From positions 1 to 16,099 of the IMG/VR virus record IMGVR_UViG_2802429227_000005: DNA of 16,099 nucleotides, one strand, 5' to 3'. Made by a program: the position numbers and the translations under genes. Below the pieces are notes generated by a model that saw only the letters and a program-made list of their open reading frames with translations, was not told where the DNA came from and did no database searches. How positions within the stretch are numbered: position 1 is the first letter of the stretch; each line of letters begins with the position of its first letter. Positions 1 to 15,382 of this stretch are shown in pieces. The DNA is from a virus. Lineage: Duplodnaviria; Heunggongvirae; Uroviricota; Caudoviricetes.

Positions 1-192
1 TCAGGAGCATTTCTGATTAACGCCACCGTTAAGAATCCACCCTTCAACAGCTTCACGAAGGTATGATTTGGGGTGGGTTCTGACTGGCTTCGGAAATCCG
101 TGCCGTTTGGTATAGTTCCAGATTGTCTGACGTGATGAAACACCGAGCTTGTTCATCACTTCTTTCTCAGGAATCAGGCTGGTATCGGTCAT
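1..192 (-). CDS. xis: Excisionase-like / AlpA-family small HTH DNA-binding protein (63 aa)
   Basis: Complete ORF in the six-frame track; small basic protein with an HTH-like core (LGVSSRQTIWNYTKRHGFPKP) typical of AlpA/Xis-type excisionases; sits at the left edge where an int-xis module is expected in a lambdoid prophage. Confidence 0.5.
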   Translation of the reverse strand: MTDTSLIPEKEVMNKLGVSSRQTIWNYTKRHGFPKPVRTHPKSYLREAVEGWILNGGVNQKCS

Positions 193-204
193 CTTAATTC
201 TCCA

Positions 205-232
205 GGCAAAAATAAACCGCCATATAGCGGCT
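205..232 (-). terminator. Rho-independent terminator candidate (short GC stem CCGC/GCGG followed by TTTATTTTT on the minus strand)
   Basis: Plus strand reads aaaaataaaccgccatatagcggc; on the minus strand this is a hairpin followed by a U-tract, downstream of the 293..508 ORF. The stem is short. Confidence 0.45.
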
Positions 233-292
233 CTATCAGATATGAACAGGCCTCATCGAGTGTGAGGCAGTGTGATTTCTTTATTTCCACTC

Positions 293-508
293 TTAATGTT
301 TGTCAGTGAATGGTTTCTCCATCTCCATTAATGCCTTATTCATCTCATTTCGTAACTCTATAGCCATCCTGACGGCTTCAACTTGTGCAGGATGTCGGTT
401 AATTGCTGGAGAATATCGTCGGGAGCGAAGGATTGAGAAAACAAAGATAATGCAAGCAACTATCTGAATTGCATTGCATGTTATTGATACAATGTTAATT
501 GCAGCCAT
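293..508 (-). CDS. Hypothetical small protein (71 aa), hydrophobic N-terminus, possible membrane protein
   Basis: ORF in the six-frame track; N-terminal hydrophobic stretch (IVSITCNAIQIVACIIFVFSIL); flanked by terminators on both sides. Confidence 0.4.
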   Translation of the reverse strand: MAAINIVSITCNAIQIVACIIFVFSILRSRRYSPAINRHPAQVEAVRMAIELRNEMNKALMEMEKPFTDKH

Positions 509-516
509 CTACTACC

Positions 517-540
517 CCCAAAAAAACCGCCATCAGGCGG
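517..540 (-). terminator. Rho-independent terminator (stem CCGCC/GGCGG, loop TGAT, then T7 on the minus strand)
   Basis: Plus strand aaaaaaaccgccatcaggcgg; perfect 5-bp GC stem plus U-tract on the minus strand; the stop codon of the 533..700 ORF lies in the loop. Confidence 0.6.
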
Positions 541-700
541 CTTGGTGTTCTTTCAGTTCTTCAATTCGAATATTGGTTACTTCTGCATGTGCTATCTGCG
601 CCCATATCATCCAGTGGTTATAGCAGTCATTGATATCCTCTGCTTCGATAACTCTGTCGAATGGCTCTCCATTCCATTCACCTGTGACTCGAAAGTGCAT
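533..700 (-). CDS. Hypothetical small protein (55 aa; below the ORF-track size cutoff)
   Basis: Manual translation of the minus strand: MHFRVTGEWNGEPFDRVIEAEDINDCYNHWMIWAQIAHAEVTNIRIEELKEHQAA; GGAG Shine-Dalgarno about 8 nt upstream of the ATG; ends inside a terminator hairpin. Confidence 0.4.
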   Translation of the reverse strand: MHFRVTGEWNGEPFDRVIEAEDINDCYNHWMIWAQIAHAEVTNIRIEELKEHQAA

Positions 701-4424: not shown

Positions 4425-5304
4425 CCTCCAGTTTCGCTTTGCATTCTATGTAAATGGCTTGTACGTTCTGCTGCAATTTCATTCCAGATGTCAGGCGATA
4501 TGCTTCTGCAAAATATCGCTTCAAATCATCCATGTTTTCTGCCTGAGCCATTTCATCACAAAGAAGTTGTGCTTTATCCATTATTTCCTGCTGGCGTTTC
4601 CGTTCATCTTCGCGGATATCTTCCTCTGATTTGTGCGGCATAACTGGTTCCTGATGCATACCTTCATCTTCGTTAAGCAGGTGAATGGCATTATCCAGTC
4701 GCTGGGCTTTAGGCCAGTATTTGCTGGCGCGTTTAACTATTGTTTTACGCGCCATCTCTTCCCAGAATGTTTTCCACGGTCCATTCTTTGCCTTGCTCGT
4801 TGCTTCCACAGCTTTAATTTCTGCCAGACTCATTTCTTCAGTCAGGTAGTCACCATCTGCTGTTTTAACCGTGCAATAACCACCAACAATAGAGCCTCGC
4901 TCACCAAATGCGTTGTATTTGTGGGTTGGTGCTGAATCAAGGCCATTTGATTCATAGGTGTCGTTTGAGTACACCAGTTTGCATTGCCCCCACTTAATTG
5001 ATCCTGTCGACTGTGCAAGGTGAAGTAATCCCATATAGCTGATATCAAGGCACACCATGCCGTCGCGCGGAACCAGATAAGCAAGTTTGCTGGCTGGGTT
5101 TAAGGTGATGCCGATCGCCGCAACATTGATGATGGCGTTCTGTGCGCTGGTTGGATTTGCCAGTGCCGTTTTAGCCAGGTAATCATTTTTCTGGAAATAC
5201 TGAATTGCAAACTGGCTTTCCTTAGCCCATGTCACCGTCTGTTCAGTCAATGCTCCGCAGAATAACTGCTCTTGCTGTTTAACGAATTCAACGATATTGC
5301 TCAT
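4402..5304 (-). CDS. recT: RecT-family single-strand annealing protein (300 aa)
   Basis: Motif NGPWKTFWEEMARKTIVKRASKYWP matches the conserved RecT core (E. coli RecT NGPWVTHWEEMAKKTAIRRLFKYLP); in the bet position of the early-left operon. Confidence 0.85.
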   Translation of the reverse strand: MSNIVEFVKQQEQLFCGALTEQTVTWAKESQFAIQYFQKNDYLAKTALANPTSAQNAIINVAAIGITLNPASKLAYLVPRDGMVCLDISYMGLLHLAQSTGSIKWGQCKLVYSNDTYESNGLDSAPTHKYNAFGERGSIVGGYCTVKTADGDYLTEEMSLAEIKAVEATSKAKNGPWKTFWEEMARKTIVKRASKYWPKAQRLDNAIHLLNEDEGMHQEPVMPHKSEEDIREDERKRQQEIMDKAQLLCDEMAQAENMDDLKRYFAEAYRLTSGMKLQQNVQAIYIECKAKLEVASEQTV

Positions 5305-5612
5305 GCTGCTTCTCCAAAAATGTGTCTGCGTTTGAATATTGCGAAGGCATATTCAGCCTTAACTCTTTCGGTTATTGCATCCCAGAACCATTCAGCGGCT
5401 TTTTCCTGATAGTTACAGTCATCATCTTCCAGCCAGTCGATAGCGTCCTTAGTGTGTTCATCTGGTTTATATGAGCGAAGCATTTCGCTTATTGGGTCGC
5501 AACGTTTGCAGAGGCGATCAACTTCACTGTTGATTCGTTCGTAATCTTCATCAGTAAAACTTGCGATTATTTGCGATATTTCACGCTTATCATTCAGAGT
5601 CAGAATCATCAT
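5301..5612 (-). CDS. Hypothetical acidic protein (103 aa) in the gam/arf position upstream of recT
   Basis: ORF with an AGGAG Shine-Dalgarno; ATGA stop/start overlap with recT; no resemblance to lambda Gam that I can see. Confidence 0.5.
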   Translation of the reverse strand: MMILTLNDKREISQIIASFTDEDYERINSEVDRLCKRCDPISEMLRSYKPDEHTKDAIDWLEDDDCNYQEKAAEWFWDAITERVKAEYAFAIFKRRHIFGEAA

Positions 5613-5693: not shown

Positions 5694-5846
5694 TCATTTC
5701 CTGCGATACCACGGAAGGTTGATAGCTGATTTCATCGCTTTATTTGCTTCAAGCCACATTTTGGAATCACCAATAAATCTGGCTATTACTGCTTTGTTCT
5801 GTGCAGCACGAAGCATCTGGTGATTAATGGCTATTTCATTGCGCAT
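5694..5846 (-). CDS. Small hypothetical protein (50 aa) in the kil position
   Basis: Manual translation: MRNEIAINHQMLRAAQNKAVIARFIGDSKMWLEANKAMKSAINLPWYRRK; start overlaps the 3' end of the CIII-like gene; between cIII-like and the recombination genes as kil is in lambda. Confidence 0.3.
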   Translation of the reverse strand: MRNEIAINHQMLRAAQNKAVIARFIGDSKMWLEANKAMKSAINLPWYRRK

Positions 5847-7729: not shown

Positions 7730-7756
7730 GGGAAATAAAAAAGGGGCGAAAGCCCC
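7730..7756 (-). terminator. Rho-independent terminator directly after the c2 stop codon (GGGGC-GAAA-GCCCC then T-run)
   Basis: Minus strand GGGGCTTTCGCCCC followed by TTTTTTATTTCC; the stem starts about 1 nt after the c2 stop. Confidence 0.7.
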
Positions 7757-8407
7757 TTAAGGAAGGTTTGCTAGCTTGGCATCAACGACAACGCCAATGA
7801 TTTTACAGTTCCCATTGATTTCAATCATTGGGTATTGTGGATTGAGTGGTTTCAGGAATTTTCTACCGGCATCAATAACTAACTTTTTGAATGTCGCCTC
7901 GTTTTCTCCTTCAAGTTTGGCGACTACCAGCTTTCCATTACGTGGTTCGACTTCTGGGTCGACGAGAATAATCATCCCCTCAGGAATACTCAGTCCTGCC
8001 GGGGCAGTCATTGAATCGCCTTTAACGTCGAGCCAAAAAGAGTCTTCAGAACAATCTACCGTTGTGTCGTACCAGTTATCTATTGCACGCCTATGATATG
8101 GCTCTACAGCTTCCATCCAACATCCTGCGCTTACCCAACTAATTAGAGGATACGAACCTCTTGGATCATGCCTGCTGTGATAGGCAATGTTTGAAAGACT
8201 ATCCTCTCCTTTCAACAGGTAATCAGGGGAGCACTGCAAAGCCTTGGCTAAGGCCAATAGGTTTTCGCCATTGGGCTCAGTTTCAGATCGCTCCCACTGG
8301 GAAATAGCAACATTAGACACGCCAACCATCTTGCCAAGGGCAGCCTGCCTAATCTTGAGTTCTTTTCTGCGAGCGCGAATACGCTCACCCATCAGTTGTG
8401 TATTCAT
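7757..8407 (-). CDS. c2: Phage repressor, P22 C2 type (HTH_XRE N-terminal domain plus LexA/S24-like C-terminal domain; 216 aa)
   Basis: Translation MNTQLMGERIRARRKELKIRQAALGKMVGVSNVAISQWERSETEP... matches the P22 c2 repressor almost residue for residue as I recall it; C-terminal GDSM and K (Ser-Lys dyad) self-cleavage motifs are present. Confidence 0.9.
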   Translation of the reverse strand: MNTQLMGERIRARRKELKIRQAALGKMVGVSNVAISQWERSETEPNGENLLALAKALQCSPDYLLKGEDSLSNIAYHSRHDPRGSYPLISWVSAGCWMEAVEPYHRRAIDNWYDTTVDCSEDSFWLDVKGDSMTAPAGLSIPEGMIILVDPEVEPRNGKLVVAKLEGENEATFKKLVIDAGRKFLKPLNPQYPMIEINGNCKIIGVVVDAKLANLP

Positions 8408-8487: not shown

Positions 8488-8673
8488 ATGTACAAAAAAG
8501 ATGTTATTGACCACTTCGGAACCCAGCGTGCTGTTGCTAAAGCACTAGGCATTAGCGATGCAGCAGTCTCTCAGTGGAAAGAAGTTATCCCAGAGAAAGA
8601 CGCCTATCGATTGGAAATCGTTACAGCTGGCGCCCTGAAGTATCAAGAAAGTGCTTACCGCCAAGCGGCATAA
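8488..8673 (+). CDS. cro: Cro repressor, P22 type (61 aa)
   Basis: Translation MYKKDVIDHFGTQRAVAKALGISDAAVSQWKEVIPEKDAYRLEIVTAGALKYQESAYRQAA matches P22 Cro as I recall it; GGAG Shine-Dalgarno; divergent from c2 across OR. Confidence 0.85.
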   Translation: MYKKDVIDHFGTQRAVAKALGISDAAVSQWKEVIPEKDAYRLEIVTAGALKYQESAYRQAA

Positions 8674-8680
8674 GCAAATT

Positions 8681-8720
8681 GCTCTTTAACAGTTCTGGCC
8701 TTTCACCTCTAACCGGGTGA
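8681..8720 (+). promoter_or_regulatory. nutR site: boxA (GCTCTTTAACA) plus a phi21-type boxB hairpin (TCACC-TCTAACC-GGGTGA)
   Basis: Read directly downstream of cro; boxB shares the CUAACC loop with nutL. Confidence 0.65.
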
Positions 8721-8778
8721 GCAAACATCAGCGGCAAATCCATTGGGTGTGCCGCTATAACTCAATATCAATATAGGA

Positions 8779-8811
8779 AAATTAACAAATGGCACAAGCA
8801 AGCTACAGCAA
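8779..8811 (-). promoter_or_regulatory. pRE-like CII-dependent promoter: TTGC-N6-TTGC (8798..8811) then 13 nt then -10 TAATTT (8779..8784), leftward
   Basis: Minus strand GCTTGCTGTAGCTTGC-TTGTGCCATTTGT-TAATTT; the TTGC repeats lie in the first codons of the cII-like gene, as in lambda pRE. Confidence 0.55.
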
Positions 8812-9085
8812 GCCAACACAGCGAGAAATTGATCGCGCTGAAACTGATTTACTCATCAACCTGTCAACGCTTACCCAGCGCGGTCTGGCAAAGATGATTG
8901 GCTGTCATGAATCGAAGATAAGCAGAACGGACTGGAGATTTATTGCTTCGGTCTTGTGTGCTTTCGGAATGGCATCAGACATCAGTCCGATTAGCAGGGC
9001 TTTTAAGTATGCGCTTGATGAAATCACAAAGAAAAAATCCCCGGTGGCCGCCGGGGACTCTAAGCAAATTGATATGCAATTCTGA
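8789..9085 (+). CDS. c1: CII-like transcriptional activator (P22 c1 type; 98 aa)
   Basis: Pattern similarity to lambda CII: ...ESKISRTDWRF... against ...KSQISRWKRDW..., and C-terminus TKKKSPVAAGDSKQIDMQF against TNKKRPAATERSEQIQMEF; position after cro and nutR. Confidence 0.75.
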   Translation: MAQASYSKPTQREIDRAETDLLINLSTLTQRGLAKMIGCHESKISRTDWRFIASVLCAFGMASDISPISRAFKYALDEITKKKSPVAAGDSKQIDMQF

Positions 9086-9108
9086 GGGAATTACTGGATC
9101 AATCCACA
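9031..9108 (-). ncRNA. OOP-like antisense RNA candidate (about 78 nt), with an extended -10 promoter and a terminator inside the 3' end of the cII-like gene
   Basis: Minus-strand hairpin CCCCGG-CGGCCA-CCGGGG (plus 9039..9056) followed by ATTTTTTC; about 77 nt upstream on the minus strand is TGtCATAAT (plus 9115..9123). Geometry mirrors lambda pO/OOP. Confidence 0.5.
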
Positions 9109-9117
9109 GGAGTCATT

Positions 9118-9279
9118 ATGACAAAACGTCGTAAGAAATACCAGGAAAAAGAAGAGATTCGACACCCTGATTCACCTGAGGGATTAGTGGTAGCCGCAGC
9201 AAATAACAGGGCGTTCGCAGAGCGCCTTGTTGGTGTTTACAGACTAGCCAAAGCAGGAGTGAAACATGGGCGTCGTTAA
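9118..9279 (+). CDS. Hypothetical small basic protein (53 aa; below the ORF-track cutoff) between c1 and the O-like gene
   Basis: Manual translation [53 protein letters not shown]; strong AGGAG Shine-Dalgarno 5 nt upstream of the ATG; overlaps the O-like start by 14 nt in another frame. Confidence 0.3.
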   Translation: MTKRRKKYQEKEEIRHPDSPEGLVVAAANNRAFAERLVGVYRLAKAGVKHGRR

Positions 9280-14203: not shown

Positions 14204-14388
14204 ACGCCACAATTCAAACGATACCAGAGCTTCTTATCCAGACACGAGGCAATCAGACCGAAGTGGCGAGGATGCTTTCCTGCGCAAGAGGAACAGTGCT
14301 CAAGTACAACCGAGACAGCAAAGGCGAGCGTCACGTAATAGTTAACGGCGTCCTGATGGTCACGCCAGGCAAAAAGGGAAGACGATGA
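14200..14388 (+). CDS. ninH: NinH-like small HTH protein (62 aa)
   Basis: TIPELLIQTRGNQTEVARMLSCARGTVLKYNRDSKGERHVIVNGVLMV against lambda NinH TIPDMLVEAYGNQTEVARRLKCSRGTVRKYVDDKDGKMHAIVNDVLMV. Confidence 0.7.
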   Translation: MNATIQTIPELLIQTRGNQTEVARMLSCARGTVLKYNRDSKGERHVIVNGVLMVTPGKKGRR

Positions 14389-14903
14389 GCATAAGAGAGC
14401 TAAACCTCACCAAAGAACAGCACGATTGGCTGAATGGCTGGCTTGAACTGTGGGGCGCATGGGTTTATTCAGGTCGTCTGGAAAAGCGCATGAGCAGCGT
14501 AATAGCGAAGTTCATGGAGAGCGTAGAGCCGGGAAGAGTTATGACAAGGCCAATGTGCAATGATGATGATGGAATGTTGATTTCTCAGGTCGTCGATTCT
14601 GTCATGTGCATTGACAAGAAAGCCTTTGGCATCCTCCTCAGCTACTACGCTCATGGTTCATCTAAGCGAGCAATTGCATCCTACTATCACGCGACTGCAA
14701 AGCCACGCAAGATGTGTGGACGCGGTGGCGAGGGATGGAGAAAACCTTCACTGGCAACCTGTAGAAACGAAATTGACGATATCCTGAAAGCGTCATTATT
14801 TGTTTTGTACCAACCAATGCAAAATGCTTTCAAAATGCGTAAACGTGTTGAGAAAGTTAAGCATGTTGCTGTTAAAAGCCTTGACATGCAATTAGCCATT
14901 TAG
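14385..14903 (+). CDS. Q: Late-gene antiterminator Q, non-lambda type (172 aa)
   Basis: Last gene before a PR'-like promoter and the lysis cassette; N-terminal LELWGAWV motif and Cys-rich segment resemble non-lambda Q families as I recall them; ATGA-coupled to ninH. Confidence 0.55.
   Translation: MSIRELNLTKEQHDWLNGWLELWGAWVYSGRLEKRMSSVIAKFMESVEPGRVMTRPMCNDDDGMLISQVVDSVMCIDKKAFGILLSYYAHGSSKRAIASYYHATAKPRKMCGRGGEGWRKPSLATCRNEIDDILKASLFVLYQPMQNAFKMRKRVEKVKHVAVKSLDMQLAI
14678..14710 (-). promoter_or_regulatory. paQ-like CII-dependent antisense promoter inside Q: TTGC-N6-TTGC (14697..14710) then 13 nt then -10 TAGGAT (14678..14683)
   Basis: Minus strand TTGCGTGGCTTTGC-AGTCGCGTGATAG-TAGGAT; identical spacing architecture to the pRE-like site at 8779..8811. 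Confidence 0.45.
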
Positions 14904-14910
14904 CCATAAT
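14881..14910 (+). promoter_or_regulatory. PR' late promoter candidate (-35 TTGACA at 14881..14886, 18-bp spacer, -10 CATAAT at 14905..14910); qut expected to overlap
   Basis: Consensus-like hexamers overlapping the Q stop codon; oriented toward S/R. Confidence 0.45.
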
Positions 14911-14920
14911 TAGAGGGTAA

Positions 14921-14962
14921 GCTGCCATTAGTGACTCTTAAGTTGCAACGGTGGCTTTTTTT
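14921..14962 (+). terminator. tR'-like terminator candidate: weak hairpin followed by a T7 run (14956..14962)
   Basis: GCCATT...GGTGGC imperfect stem (includes G-U pairs) then TTTTTTT; lies about 45 nt downstream of the predicted PR' start. The hairpin is weak. Confidence 0.3.
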
Positions 14963-15382
14963 GTTTGCACAACAGGTAAGAGCATTGAACCCTCAGACCT
15001 CGCGGAATTGGTGAAAGGTGCCGCGCAGTGCTCTTATCGTTGTGGTGAATGCACAGGCTGATGTGTAAGGGCAAGAATCTTTCGCTGGATTCGGTGTGGC
15101 CACGTAGCCCGCTGTAGGCAGTTGCAGCAAACCGGAGATCAGCACCGGTCGCCACAATCCAAACTGAGCCGTAGCCACTGGCTATCCTGAACTCATCAGT
15201 GATAGTTATGCTGCGGCCTTCTACATATGACCTTCGTGAAAGCGGGTGGCAAGAGGCTGCGCTAACAACCTCATGCCGTTTTGCCCGTGCATATCGGTCA
15301 CGAACAAATCTGATTACTAAACACAGTAGCCTGGATTTGTTCTATCAGTAATCGACCTTATTCCTAATTAAATAGAGCAAAT

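What the first reader, a model, noticed from the sequence alone, without database searches (positions are those of the whole stretch)
8779..8811. pRE-like CII-activated promoter with TTGC-N6-TTGC inside the first codons of the cII-like gene
The minus strand carries TTGC TGTAGC TTGC, then 13 nt, then TAATTT. This is the tetramer-repeat architecture of lambda CII-dependent promoters and sits where pRE sits in lambda, in the 5' end of cII and pointing back through cro toward the repressor gene. It implies the CII-like c1 protein here uses the same DNA recognition logic and that c2 establishment transcription is antisense to cro.
Basis: partly seen in the sequence, partly recalled or inferred. Interest (0 to 1): 0.55.

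Follow-up and report, generated by a model that had tools for sequence, protein, structure and literature searches.

The report
Known CII-activated repressor-establishment promoter (pRE)
This is the ordinary, already annotated promoter that a lambda-like phage uses to switch on its repressor gene when it decides to go dormant; it is real and well conserved, but not new.

Summary
The minus strand reads TTGC(8811-8808) TGTAGC TTGC(8801-8798), then 13 nt, then TAATTT (8784-8779). The repeats cover codons 4-8 of a Pfam Phage_CII gene (8789-9085).

Thirteen phages, including lambda and P22, carry TTGC-N6-TTG(C/T) at the same offset from the cII ATG (+9 to +22), followed by 13 nt and an NANNNT -10. 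The tetramers stay fixed while the spacer and the encoded amino acids vary.

The composite motif TTGC-N6-TTGC-N13-TANNNT occurs 3 times in the window against 0.022 expected (0 of 3000 shuffles reached 3). One copy is this site. A second lies antisense inside the Q gene (14710-14678), exactly where the phage 21 record annotates paQ. The third (5561-5593) is unexplained.

GenBank records for phage 21, VT1-Sakai, HK629 and HK75 already annotate this same site as pRE/pE or a CII binding site.

One correction: c2 and cro are P22-type (94% and 98% identical), but the activator is HK022/HK97/VT1-Sakai-type CII, with no BLASTP alignment to P22 C1.

The feature is already known and of low interest. Activation by CII was not tested here and cannot be with these tools.

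The parts
8798..8811 (-). CII binding site, TTGC-TGTAGC-TTGC (direct tetramer repeats at 8811-8808 and 8801-8798). It lies in codons 4-8 of cII on the antisense strand.
   Evidence: The same offset is annotated as a CII or C1 binding site in phage 21, HK629, VT1-Sakai and P22.
8802..8807 (-). Weak -35 region (TGTAGC, 2 of 6 matches to TTGACA) between the repeats.
   Evidence: Annotated as the pRE -35 in phage 21 at the equivalent position. The sigma-70 consensus scan does not pick up this promoter, as expected for an activator-dependent promoter.
8779..8784 (-). -10 hexamer TAATTT, 13 nt downstream of the proximal repeat.
   Evidence: Phage 21 annotates the pRE -10 at this offset. In the 13 phages compared the hexamer is NANNNT at the same spacing.
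8772..8772 (-). Inferred transcription start, 7 nt past the -10 and 17 nt upstream of the cII ATG. This is by analogy with the lambda pRE start (recalled as coordinate 38343; cII ATG at 38360).
   Evidence: Inference from the alignment plus textbook knowledge of lambda. Not measured.
8789..9085 (+). cII-like activator gene (98 aa).
   Evidence: Pfam PF05269 Phage_CII, E = 2.5e-32. 33% identical to lambda CII. Matches PDB 1xwr/1zpq/8igr. 99% identical to VT1-Sakai CII.
8488..8673 (+). cro, read in antisense by the pRE transcript.
   Evidence: Pfam P22_Cro. 98% identical to P22 Cro.
7757..8407 (-). c2/cI prophage repressor gene, the target of establishment transcription.
   Evidence: Pfam HTH_3 plus Peptidase_S24. 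94% identical to P22 C2.
7741..7758 (-). Terminator-like hairpin with a T run at the end of c2. It is the first such site downstream of pRE on this strand.
14678..14710 (-). Companion paQ-like promoter: TTGC GTGGCT TTGC (14710-14697), 13 nt, TAGGAT (14683-14678). It is antisense inside the Q21-type antiterminator gene (14385-14903).
   Evidence: Phage 21 annotates paQ at the identical offset in Q, 312-325. The tetramers and -10 are conserved in Sf6, SF3 and GF-2 while the spacers vary.

Best explanation
This is the repressor-establishment promoter (pRE, also called pE) of a lambdoid phage.

Proposed mechanism, by homology with lambda and P22:
1. After infection, CII is made from the pR transcript.
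2. CII binds the two TTGC tetramers that flank a poor -35 region.
3. CII recruits or stabilises sigma-70 RNA polymerase at the TAATTT -10.
4. Transcription fires leftward from about position 8772.
5. The transcript runs antisense through cro and then, in the sense direction, through the c2 repressor gene. This gives the first burst of repressor needed for lysogeny.

The same activator probably also fires an antisense promoter inside Q (14710-14678), which would delay late gene expression.

What is shown and what is inferred:
- Shown here: the sequence architecture, its position, its conservation, the presence of a CII-family gene, and an unobstructed path to c2.
- Inferred by homology: CII binding, activation, and the start site.
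For: - Exact motif and spacing.
- The composite motif occurs 3 times against 0.022 expected; 0 of 3000 shuffles reached 3.
- All 13 phages compared, including lambda and P22, have TTGC-N6-TTG(C/T) at ATG+9..+22 of cII on the antisense strand, then 13 nt, then NANNNT. Seven of the 8 repeat positions are invariant and the eighth is C or T. All 6 spacer positions vary.
- The encoded residues vary while the tetramers are kept: Ala/Thr at codon 4; Ser/Asn/Thr at codon 5; Ser/Arg at codon 7; Lys/Asn at codon 8. The constraint is therefore on the DNA.
- All 80 IMG/VR relatives keep the site.
- A positive control scan of lambda recovers pRE, pI and paQ. Three other bare TTGY-N6-TTGY matches in that stretch have no -10-like hexamer at 13 nt.
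- GenBank annotations place pRE, pE or a CII/C1 site at the same offset in phage 21, HK629, VT1-Sakai, HK75 and P22.
- The ORF is a CII-family protein.
- There is no terminator-like site on the minus strand between the promoter and the end of c2.
- A companion paQ is at the annotated phage 21 position and is conserved.
- Literature: CII binds TTGCN6TTGC at PRE, PI and PaQ (PMC4651098). P22-like phages have TTGCN6TTGC/T at PRE and PaQ, citing Ho et al. 1992 (PMC2629481).
Against: - No experiment on this phage or this CII type was retrieved. Activation is inferred.
- The CII here is only 33% identical to lambda CII and does not align with P22 C1 by BLASTP, so shared DNA specificity rests on site conservation rather than protein identity.
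- The -10 matches TATAAT at only 3 of 6 positions.
- The bare 14-bp motif alone is not significantly enriched in the window.
Confidence: 0.93

Rival explanations
1. The repeat is a by-product of the coding sequence. A conserved CII N-terminus (MAQASYSK) happens to encode GCAA-N6-GCAA, and no promoter is present.
For: - The site is inside a coding region.
- The bare motif is expected about 1.3-1.5 times per window by chance.
- Close relatives share the N-terminus.
Against: - In diverged CII genes the amino acids at codons 4, 5, 7 and 8 change while the tetramers are preserved (Arg CGC for Ser AGC, Asn AAC for Lys AAG, and so on).
- The NANNNT hexamer at exactly 13 nt lies outside the ORF and is also kept.
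- The composite motif is found 3 times against 0.022 expected.
- The same composite recurs in Q, where a different protein is encoded.
Confidence: 0.03
2. CII binds here, but the main role is not repressor establishment. It could act instead by convergent-transcription or antisense damping of cro, cII, O and P expression, or by autoregulating cII as a roadblock to pR transcription.
For: The promoter faces pR transcription and its RNA is antisense to cro. The companion site in Q is purely antisense.
Against: - The transcript has an unobstructed path through the whole c2 gene, with a terminator-like hairpin only after it.
- The records for P22 and phage 21 describe this promoter as the establishment promoter.
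- Antisense effects on cro would add to c2 expression rather than replace it.
Confidence: 0.04
3. The site is a degenerate or non-functional copy in a defective prophage, where cII or the promoter is no longer used.
For: The origin of the window is unknown and it may be a prophage. No experiments are available.
Against: - cII, cro, c2, Q and the replication genes are all intact ORFs.
- The 33-bp promoter is identical to that in 34 of 80 viral contigs and, over the repeats through the -10, to phage 21, VT1-Sakai and HK629.
Confidence: 0.03

Closest known systems
Phage 21 pRE (GenBank OL657228.1), VT1-Sakai 'CII protein binding site', HK629 'putative lambda cII binding site', and HK022/HK75 pE
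   Same: - The repeats through the -10 hexamer (window 8779-8811) are identical in phage 21, VT1-Sakai and HK629. HK75 has the same repeats and spacer but a different -10 (TACTAT).
- Same offset from the cII ATG.
- Same CII type: 99% identical to VT1-Sakai, 94-95% to HK97 and HK022, 89% to phage 21.
- Phage 21 has the same P22-type c2/cro immunity region and the same paQ offset in a Q21-type gene.
   Different: Nothing material at the promoter. The surrounding mosaic differs: replication genes, nin region, and no tRNA genes after Q.
Bacteriophage lambda pRE, with pI and paQ (the CII regulon)
   Same: - TTGC-N6-TTGC flanking a weak -35, then 13 nt to the -10.
- Located at cII ATG+9..+22 on the antisense strand.
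- The transcript is antisense to cro and sense for the repressor gene.
- A companion antisense promoter sits in Q.
- The activator belongs to the same Pfam family and matches the solved CII structures.
   Different: - The spacer (TGTAGC against GTTTGT) and the -10 (TAATTT against AAGTAT) differ.
- CII is only 33% identical.
- The repressor and cro are P22-type, not lambda-type.
- No pI is seen in the window, and int lies outside it.
Salmonella phage P22 PRE, activated by C1
   Same: - c2 is 94% and cro 98% identical to P22.
- The P22 record annotates the C1 binding site at the same offset in the activator gene.
- The motif is TTGC-N6-TTGT.
   Different: The activator protein here has no BLASTP alignment to P22 C1. 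The proximal tetramer is TTGC here and TTGT in P22.

Membership tests
Lambda-type CII-dependent promoters (pRE class) | Direct tetramer repeats TTGC-N6-TTGC flanking the -35 region | tested here: met
   TTGC TGTAGC TTGC at 8811-8798 on the minus strand.
Lambda-type CII-dependent promoters (pRE class) | Poor -35 hexamer, with a -10 hexamer 13 nt downstream of the proximal repeat | tested here: met
   TGTAGC matches TTGACA at 2 of 6 positions. TAATTT lies at 13 nt. The spacing is the same in lambda pRE, pI and paQ and in the 13 phages compared. The consensus sigma-70 scan does not find it.
Lambda-type CII-dependent promoters (pRE class) | Position in the 5' end of cII, antisense, directed through cro to the repressor gene | tested here: met
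   The offset is ATG+9..+22, as in lambda and P22. There is no terminator-like site before the end of c2.
Lambda-type CII-dependent promoters (pRE class) | A CII-family activator encoded by the same phage | tested here: met
   PF05269, E = 2.5e-32. Matches the lambda CII structures 1xwr, 1zpq and 8igr.
Lambda-type CII-dependent promoters (pRE class) | Evolutionary conservation of the tetramers independent of the coding constraint | tested here: met
   Seven of 8 repeat positions are invariant and the eighth is C or T, while all spacer positions and the encoded residues vary. All 80 of 80 related loci keep the site.
Lambda-type CII-dependent promoters (pRE class) | Transcription depends on CII, and CII binds the site | not testable with these tools
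   This needs a reporter fusion, footprinting or 5'-end mapping. It is known for lambda and P22 from the literature (PMC4651098; Ho et al. 1992 as cited in PMC2629481).
CII regulon (co-regulated promoters paQ and pI) | The same composite motif antisense inside the Q gene | tested here: met
   Window 14710-14678 on the minus strand. The offset is identical to the annotated phage 21 paQ. It is conserved in Sf6, SF3 and GF-2.
CII regulon (co-regulated promoters paQ and pI) | The same motif upstream of int (pI) | tested here: inconclusive
   int is outside the window. No site is found near the xis-like ORF at 1-192, even with one mismatch allowed. Lambda-identical pI is present in 14 of 80 related loci.
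P22 c1 / PRE module specifically | The activator is homologous in sequence to P22 C1 | tested here: not met
   BLASTP finds no alignment at E <= 100. P22 is absent from the rows shown of the tblastn hits of this CII. c2 and cro are P22-type.

The most novel reading that the evidence does not exclude
The third perfect composite site may be a real, undescribed CII-dependent antisense promoter inside the early-left (pL) operon. It reads TTGC GATTAT TTGC, 13 nt, TATCAT at 5561-5593 on the + strand. It would fire against pL transcription toward kil and cIII. Such a promoter would damp host-killing and early-left functions once CII accumulates, a left-arm counterpart of paQ.
Probability: 0.2. Interest if true: 0.45.

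Novelty: already known. Interest (0 to 1): 0.1.

Why it matters
The finding mostly serves as a sanity check. It shows that the first-stage reader can recognise a textbook regulatory element from raw sequence.

Three points of modest value follow:
- The activator gene and its own promoter site travel as one cassette. Here an HK022/21-type cII with its embedded pRE is joined to a P22-type c2/cro immunity module. This works because the TTGC-N6-TTGC code is shared across otherwise unalignable CII and C1 proteins.
- The composite motif (repeats, 13 nt, then TANNNT) is very specific. In 1.2 Mb of related phage DNA it marks only pRE, paQ and one other site. Lambda-type pI carries the repeats but has a TGTACT -10, so it is found only when the -10 rule is dropped.
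- That one other site, at 5561-5593, is a cheap candidate to test.

Tried and rejected
- Rfam scan of the whole window at gathering thresholds: no hits. It gave no help with oop or other RNAs.
- ARAGORN: no tRNA genes.
- First IMG/VR fetch with the CII protein returned only relatives at 94% identity or more. This was too close to test conservation, so I added diverged CII genes from the phage collection.
- Search for a pI-like site at the left end of the window (1-700), allowing one mismatch in the repeats and requiring an NANNNT hexamer 12-14 nt downstream: nothing found. int is not in the window.
- Conservation test of the third site (5561-5593): it is identical in near-identical modules (SEN22). 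It is absent from the only diverged homologues of the host ORF, Cronobacter ENT47670 (49% aa identity) and Erwinia Midgardsormr38 (39%). In the 80-locus set it is the only non-canonical composite among about 35 bare-motif classes, roughly what chance gives. I therefore did not promote it to a finding.
- No + strand terminator lies close downstream of that site.
- Literature search for the work on altered lambda CII / P22 C1 specificity (recalled as Retallack et al. 1993) found nothing in the held library, so it is not cited as evidence.
- I rejected the idea that the activator is P22 c1.

Full report
**What is in the window.** The window is the early region of a mosaic lambdoid (P22-like/Kapi1-like) enterobacterial phage or prophage. 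Its best overall matches are E. coli phages Kapi1, Gally, 611R6, CUS-3 and HK629, at 93-96% identity over 44-65% of the window.

The genes around the finding are as follows.

| Gene | Coordinates | Evidence |
|---|---|---|
| Repressor (c2/cI) | 7757-8407, minus strand | HTH_3 plus Peptidase_S24; 94% identical to P22 C2 |
| cro | 8488-8673 | Pfam P22_Cro; 98% identical to P22 Cro |
| cII-like gene | 8789-9085 | Pfam Phage_CII, E = 2.5e-32 |
| Q antiterminator | 14385-14903 | Phage 21 type |

**Checking the observation.** The minus strand reads TTGC (8811-8808), TGTAGC, TTGC (8801-8798), then TTGTGCCATTTGT (13 nt), then TAATTT (8784-8779). The repeats occupy codons 4-8 of cII. The -10 hexamer lies between the ribosome-binding site and the ATG.

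The bare 14-bp motif is not striking by itself: 4 copies against 1.3-1.5 expected. The composite motif TTGCN6TTGC-N13-TANNNT is another matter. It occurs three times against 0.022 expected, and none of 3000 dinucleotide-preserving shuffles reached three.

**What it is: comparison across phages.** I compared the 5' end of cII in 13 phages: the window, phage 21, HK629, VT1-Sakai, HK75, lambda, P22, 24B, GF-2, POCJ13, yong1, phiEt88 and 2G7b. They span close relatives to proteins that barely align.

Every one has TTGC-N6-TTG(C/T) on the antisense strand at ATG+9..+22. This is followed by 13 nt and a hexamer with A at position 2 and T at position 6. Across the seven distinct versions, seven of the eight repeat positions never change and the eighth is C or T. 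All six spacer positions vary.

The encoded residues also change, but only in ways that keep the tetramers:
- Codon 4 is Ala or Thr.
- Codon 5 is Ser, Asn or Thr.
- Codon 7 is Ser AGC or Arg CGC.
- Codon 8 is Lys AAR or Asn AAC.

The selection therefore acts on the DNA and not on the peptide. All 80 related viral contigs from IMG/VR keep the site and a -10 of the form TAATTT, TAAGAT, TACTAT, TATGAT or TAATAT.

**What it is: the path of the transcript.** The simple sigma-70 consensus scan does not call this promoter. That fits a weak -35 that needs an activator. On the minus strand there is no terminator-like site between the promoter and the end of c2, and there is a hairpin with a T run at 7758-7741 directly after c2. 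A transcript started here would therefore run antisense through cro and then through the whole repressor gene.

As a positive control I scanned lambda 27000-46000. The repeat motif recovers pRE (AAGTAT -10), pI (TGTACT) and paQ (TAGTAT). Three other bare TTGY-N6-TTGY matches in that stretch have no -10-like hexamer at 13 nt.

In the window, the second composite site is TTGC GTGGCT TTGC, 13 nt, TAGGAT at 14710-14678 on the minus strand, antisense inside Q. Its offset in Q (312-325, with the -10 at 293-298) is identical to the paQ annotated in the phage 21 record. The tetramers and the TA(A/G)GAT -10 are kept in Sf6, phage 21, SF3 and GF-2 while the spacer and flanks vary.

In 1.2 Mb of 20-kb loci around this CII type, the strict composite motif falls only in three places:
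- at pRE, in all 80 loci;
- in Q genes of several types, about 44 hits;
- at one further site, in 6 loci.

Dropping the -10 rule also shows lambda-identical pI in 14 loci, to the left of cII. The window itself does not contain int, and it has no pI-like site near its xis-like ORF at 1-192. The motif is thus positionally enriched exactly as the CII-regulon model predicts.

**How it most likely works.** By homology with lambda and P22, CII made from the pR transcript binds the two tetramers that flank the poor -35. It helps sigma-70 RNA polymerase use the TAATTT -10. Transcription starts leftward near 8772, seven nt past the -10. This start is inferred from my recollection of the lambda pRE start (coordinate 38343) and was not measured.

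The RNA is antisense to cro and then encodes the c2 repressor. This gives the burst of repressor that establishes lysogeny. The companion promoter in Q would make anti-Q RNA.

The architecture, position, conservation, activator gene and open path are shown here. Binding, activation and the start site are inferred.

The literature in the held library states that lambda CII binds TTGCN6TTGC at PRE, PI and PaQ, and that phage 24B has a one-base variant at the same locations (PMC4651098). That agrees with the TTGT I see in 24B. The epsilon34 genome paper reports TTGCN6TTGC/T at PRE and PaQ in a P22-like phage and cites Ho et al. 1992 for P22 C1 (PMC2629481). Solved structures of lambda CII exist (1xwr, 1zpq, 8igr).

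**Comparison with what is known.** The site is already annotated in public records:
- Phage 21 (OL657228.1) annotates the pRE -10, the -35 and a 'CII binding site matches ttgynnnnnnttgy' at offsets that map exactly onto 8779-8784, 8802-8807 and 8798-8811.
- HK629 annotates a 'putative coliphage lambda cII binding site'.
- VT1-Sakai, whose CII is 99% identical, annotates a 'CII protein binding site'.
- HK75 annotates pE by similarity to HK022.
- P22 annotates its C1 binding site and PRE at the same offset.

The finding is therefore an already known element.

c2 and cro are P22-type, but the activator is not a P22 c1 homologue in sequence. BLASTP gives no alignment. The protein is 33% identical to lambda CII and 89-99% identical to the phage 21, HK97, HK022 and VT1-Sakai CII proteins. 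The cII gene and its embedded promoter behave as one cassette joined to a P22-type immunity module, as in phage 21.

**The unexplained third site.** The site is TTGC GATTAT TTGC, 13 nt, TATCAT (5 of 6 matches to consensus) at 5561-5593 on the + strand. It lies antisense in the 5' end of ORF 5301-5612. It points against pL transcription toward kil (5694-5846) and the cIII-like ORF.

Within this window its chance probability is about 0.02. However, it is identical only in near-identical modules. It is absent from the two diverged homologues of the host ORF. Among roughly 35 classes of bare-motif hits in the 80 loci, it is the only non-canonical one with a good -10, which is about what chance predicts. 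I put it at about 0.2 probability of being a real CII-dependent antisense promoter.

**Verdict.** The element is already known and already annotated, so interest is low.

Noticed in passing
window 5561-5593 (+): A third perfect CII-type composite: TTGC GATTAT TTGC, 13 nt, TATCAT. It is antisense in the 5' end of ORF 5301-5612 (minus strand) and points against pL transcription toward kil and cIII. Chance within the window is about 0.02. It is not conserved in diverged homologues, and across 1.2 Mb of related loci it is compatible with a chance hit.
   Followed up: partly
window 14678-14710 (-): A paQ-like CII-dependent antisense promoter inside the Q21-type antiterminator gene. It sits at the same offset as the paQ annotated in phage 21 and is conserved in Sf6, SF3 and GF-2.
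   Followed up: yes
window 9034-9125 (-): An oop-like antisense RNA unit overlapping the 3' end of cII. The terminator hairpin is at 9061-9034 and the upstream promoter region aligns with lambda oop/pO. HK629 annotates the same. Rfam gave no hit.
   Followed up: partly
window 8674-8788 (between cro and cII): A mosaic joint. c2 and cro are 94% and 98% identical to P22, but the adjacent cII has no BLASTP alignment to P22 C1 and is HK022/HK97/VT1-Sakai/21-type. The activator gene and its embedded promoter move as one cassette.
   Followed up: partly
window 14881-14975 (+): A pR'-like late promoter (TTGACA, 18 nt, CATAAT) with tandem AATTAGCC/ATTTAGCC. These resemble the Q-binding element described for phage L rather than that of phage 21. 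A stem with a T run follows. Unlike phage 21 and Sf6, no tRNA genes follow Q.
   Followed up: no
window 1-192 (-) and loci L100-L179: The left end of the window has a small xis/AlpA-like ORF but no int and no pI-like CII site. Fourteen of 80 related loci carry a pI identical to lambda's (TTGCGTGTAATTGC...TGTACT).
   Followed up: partly
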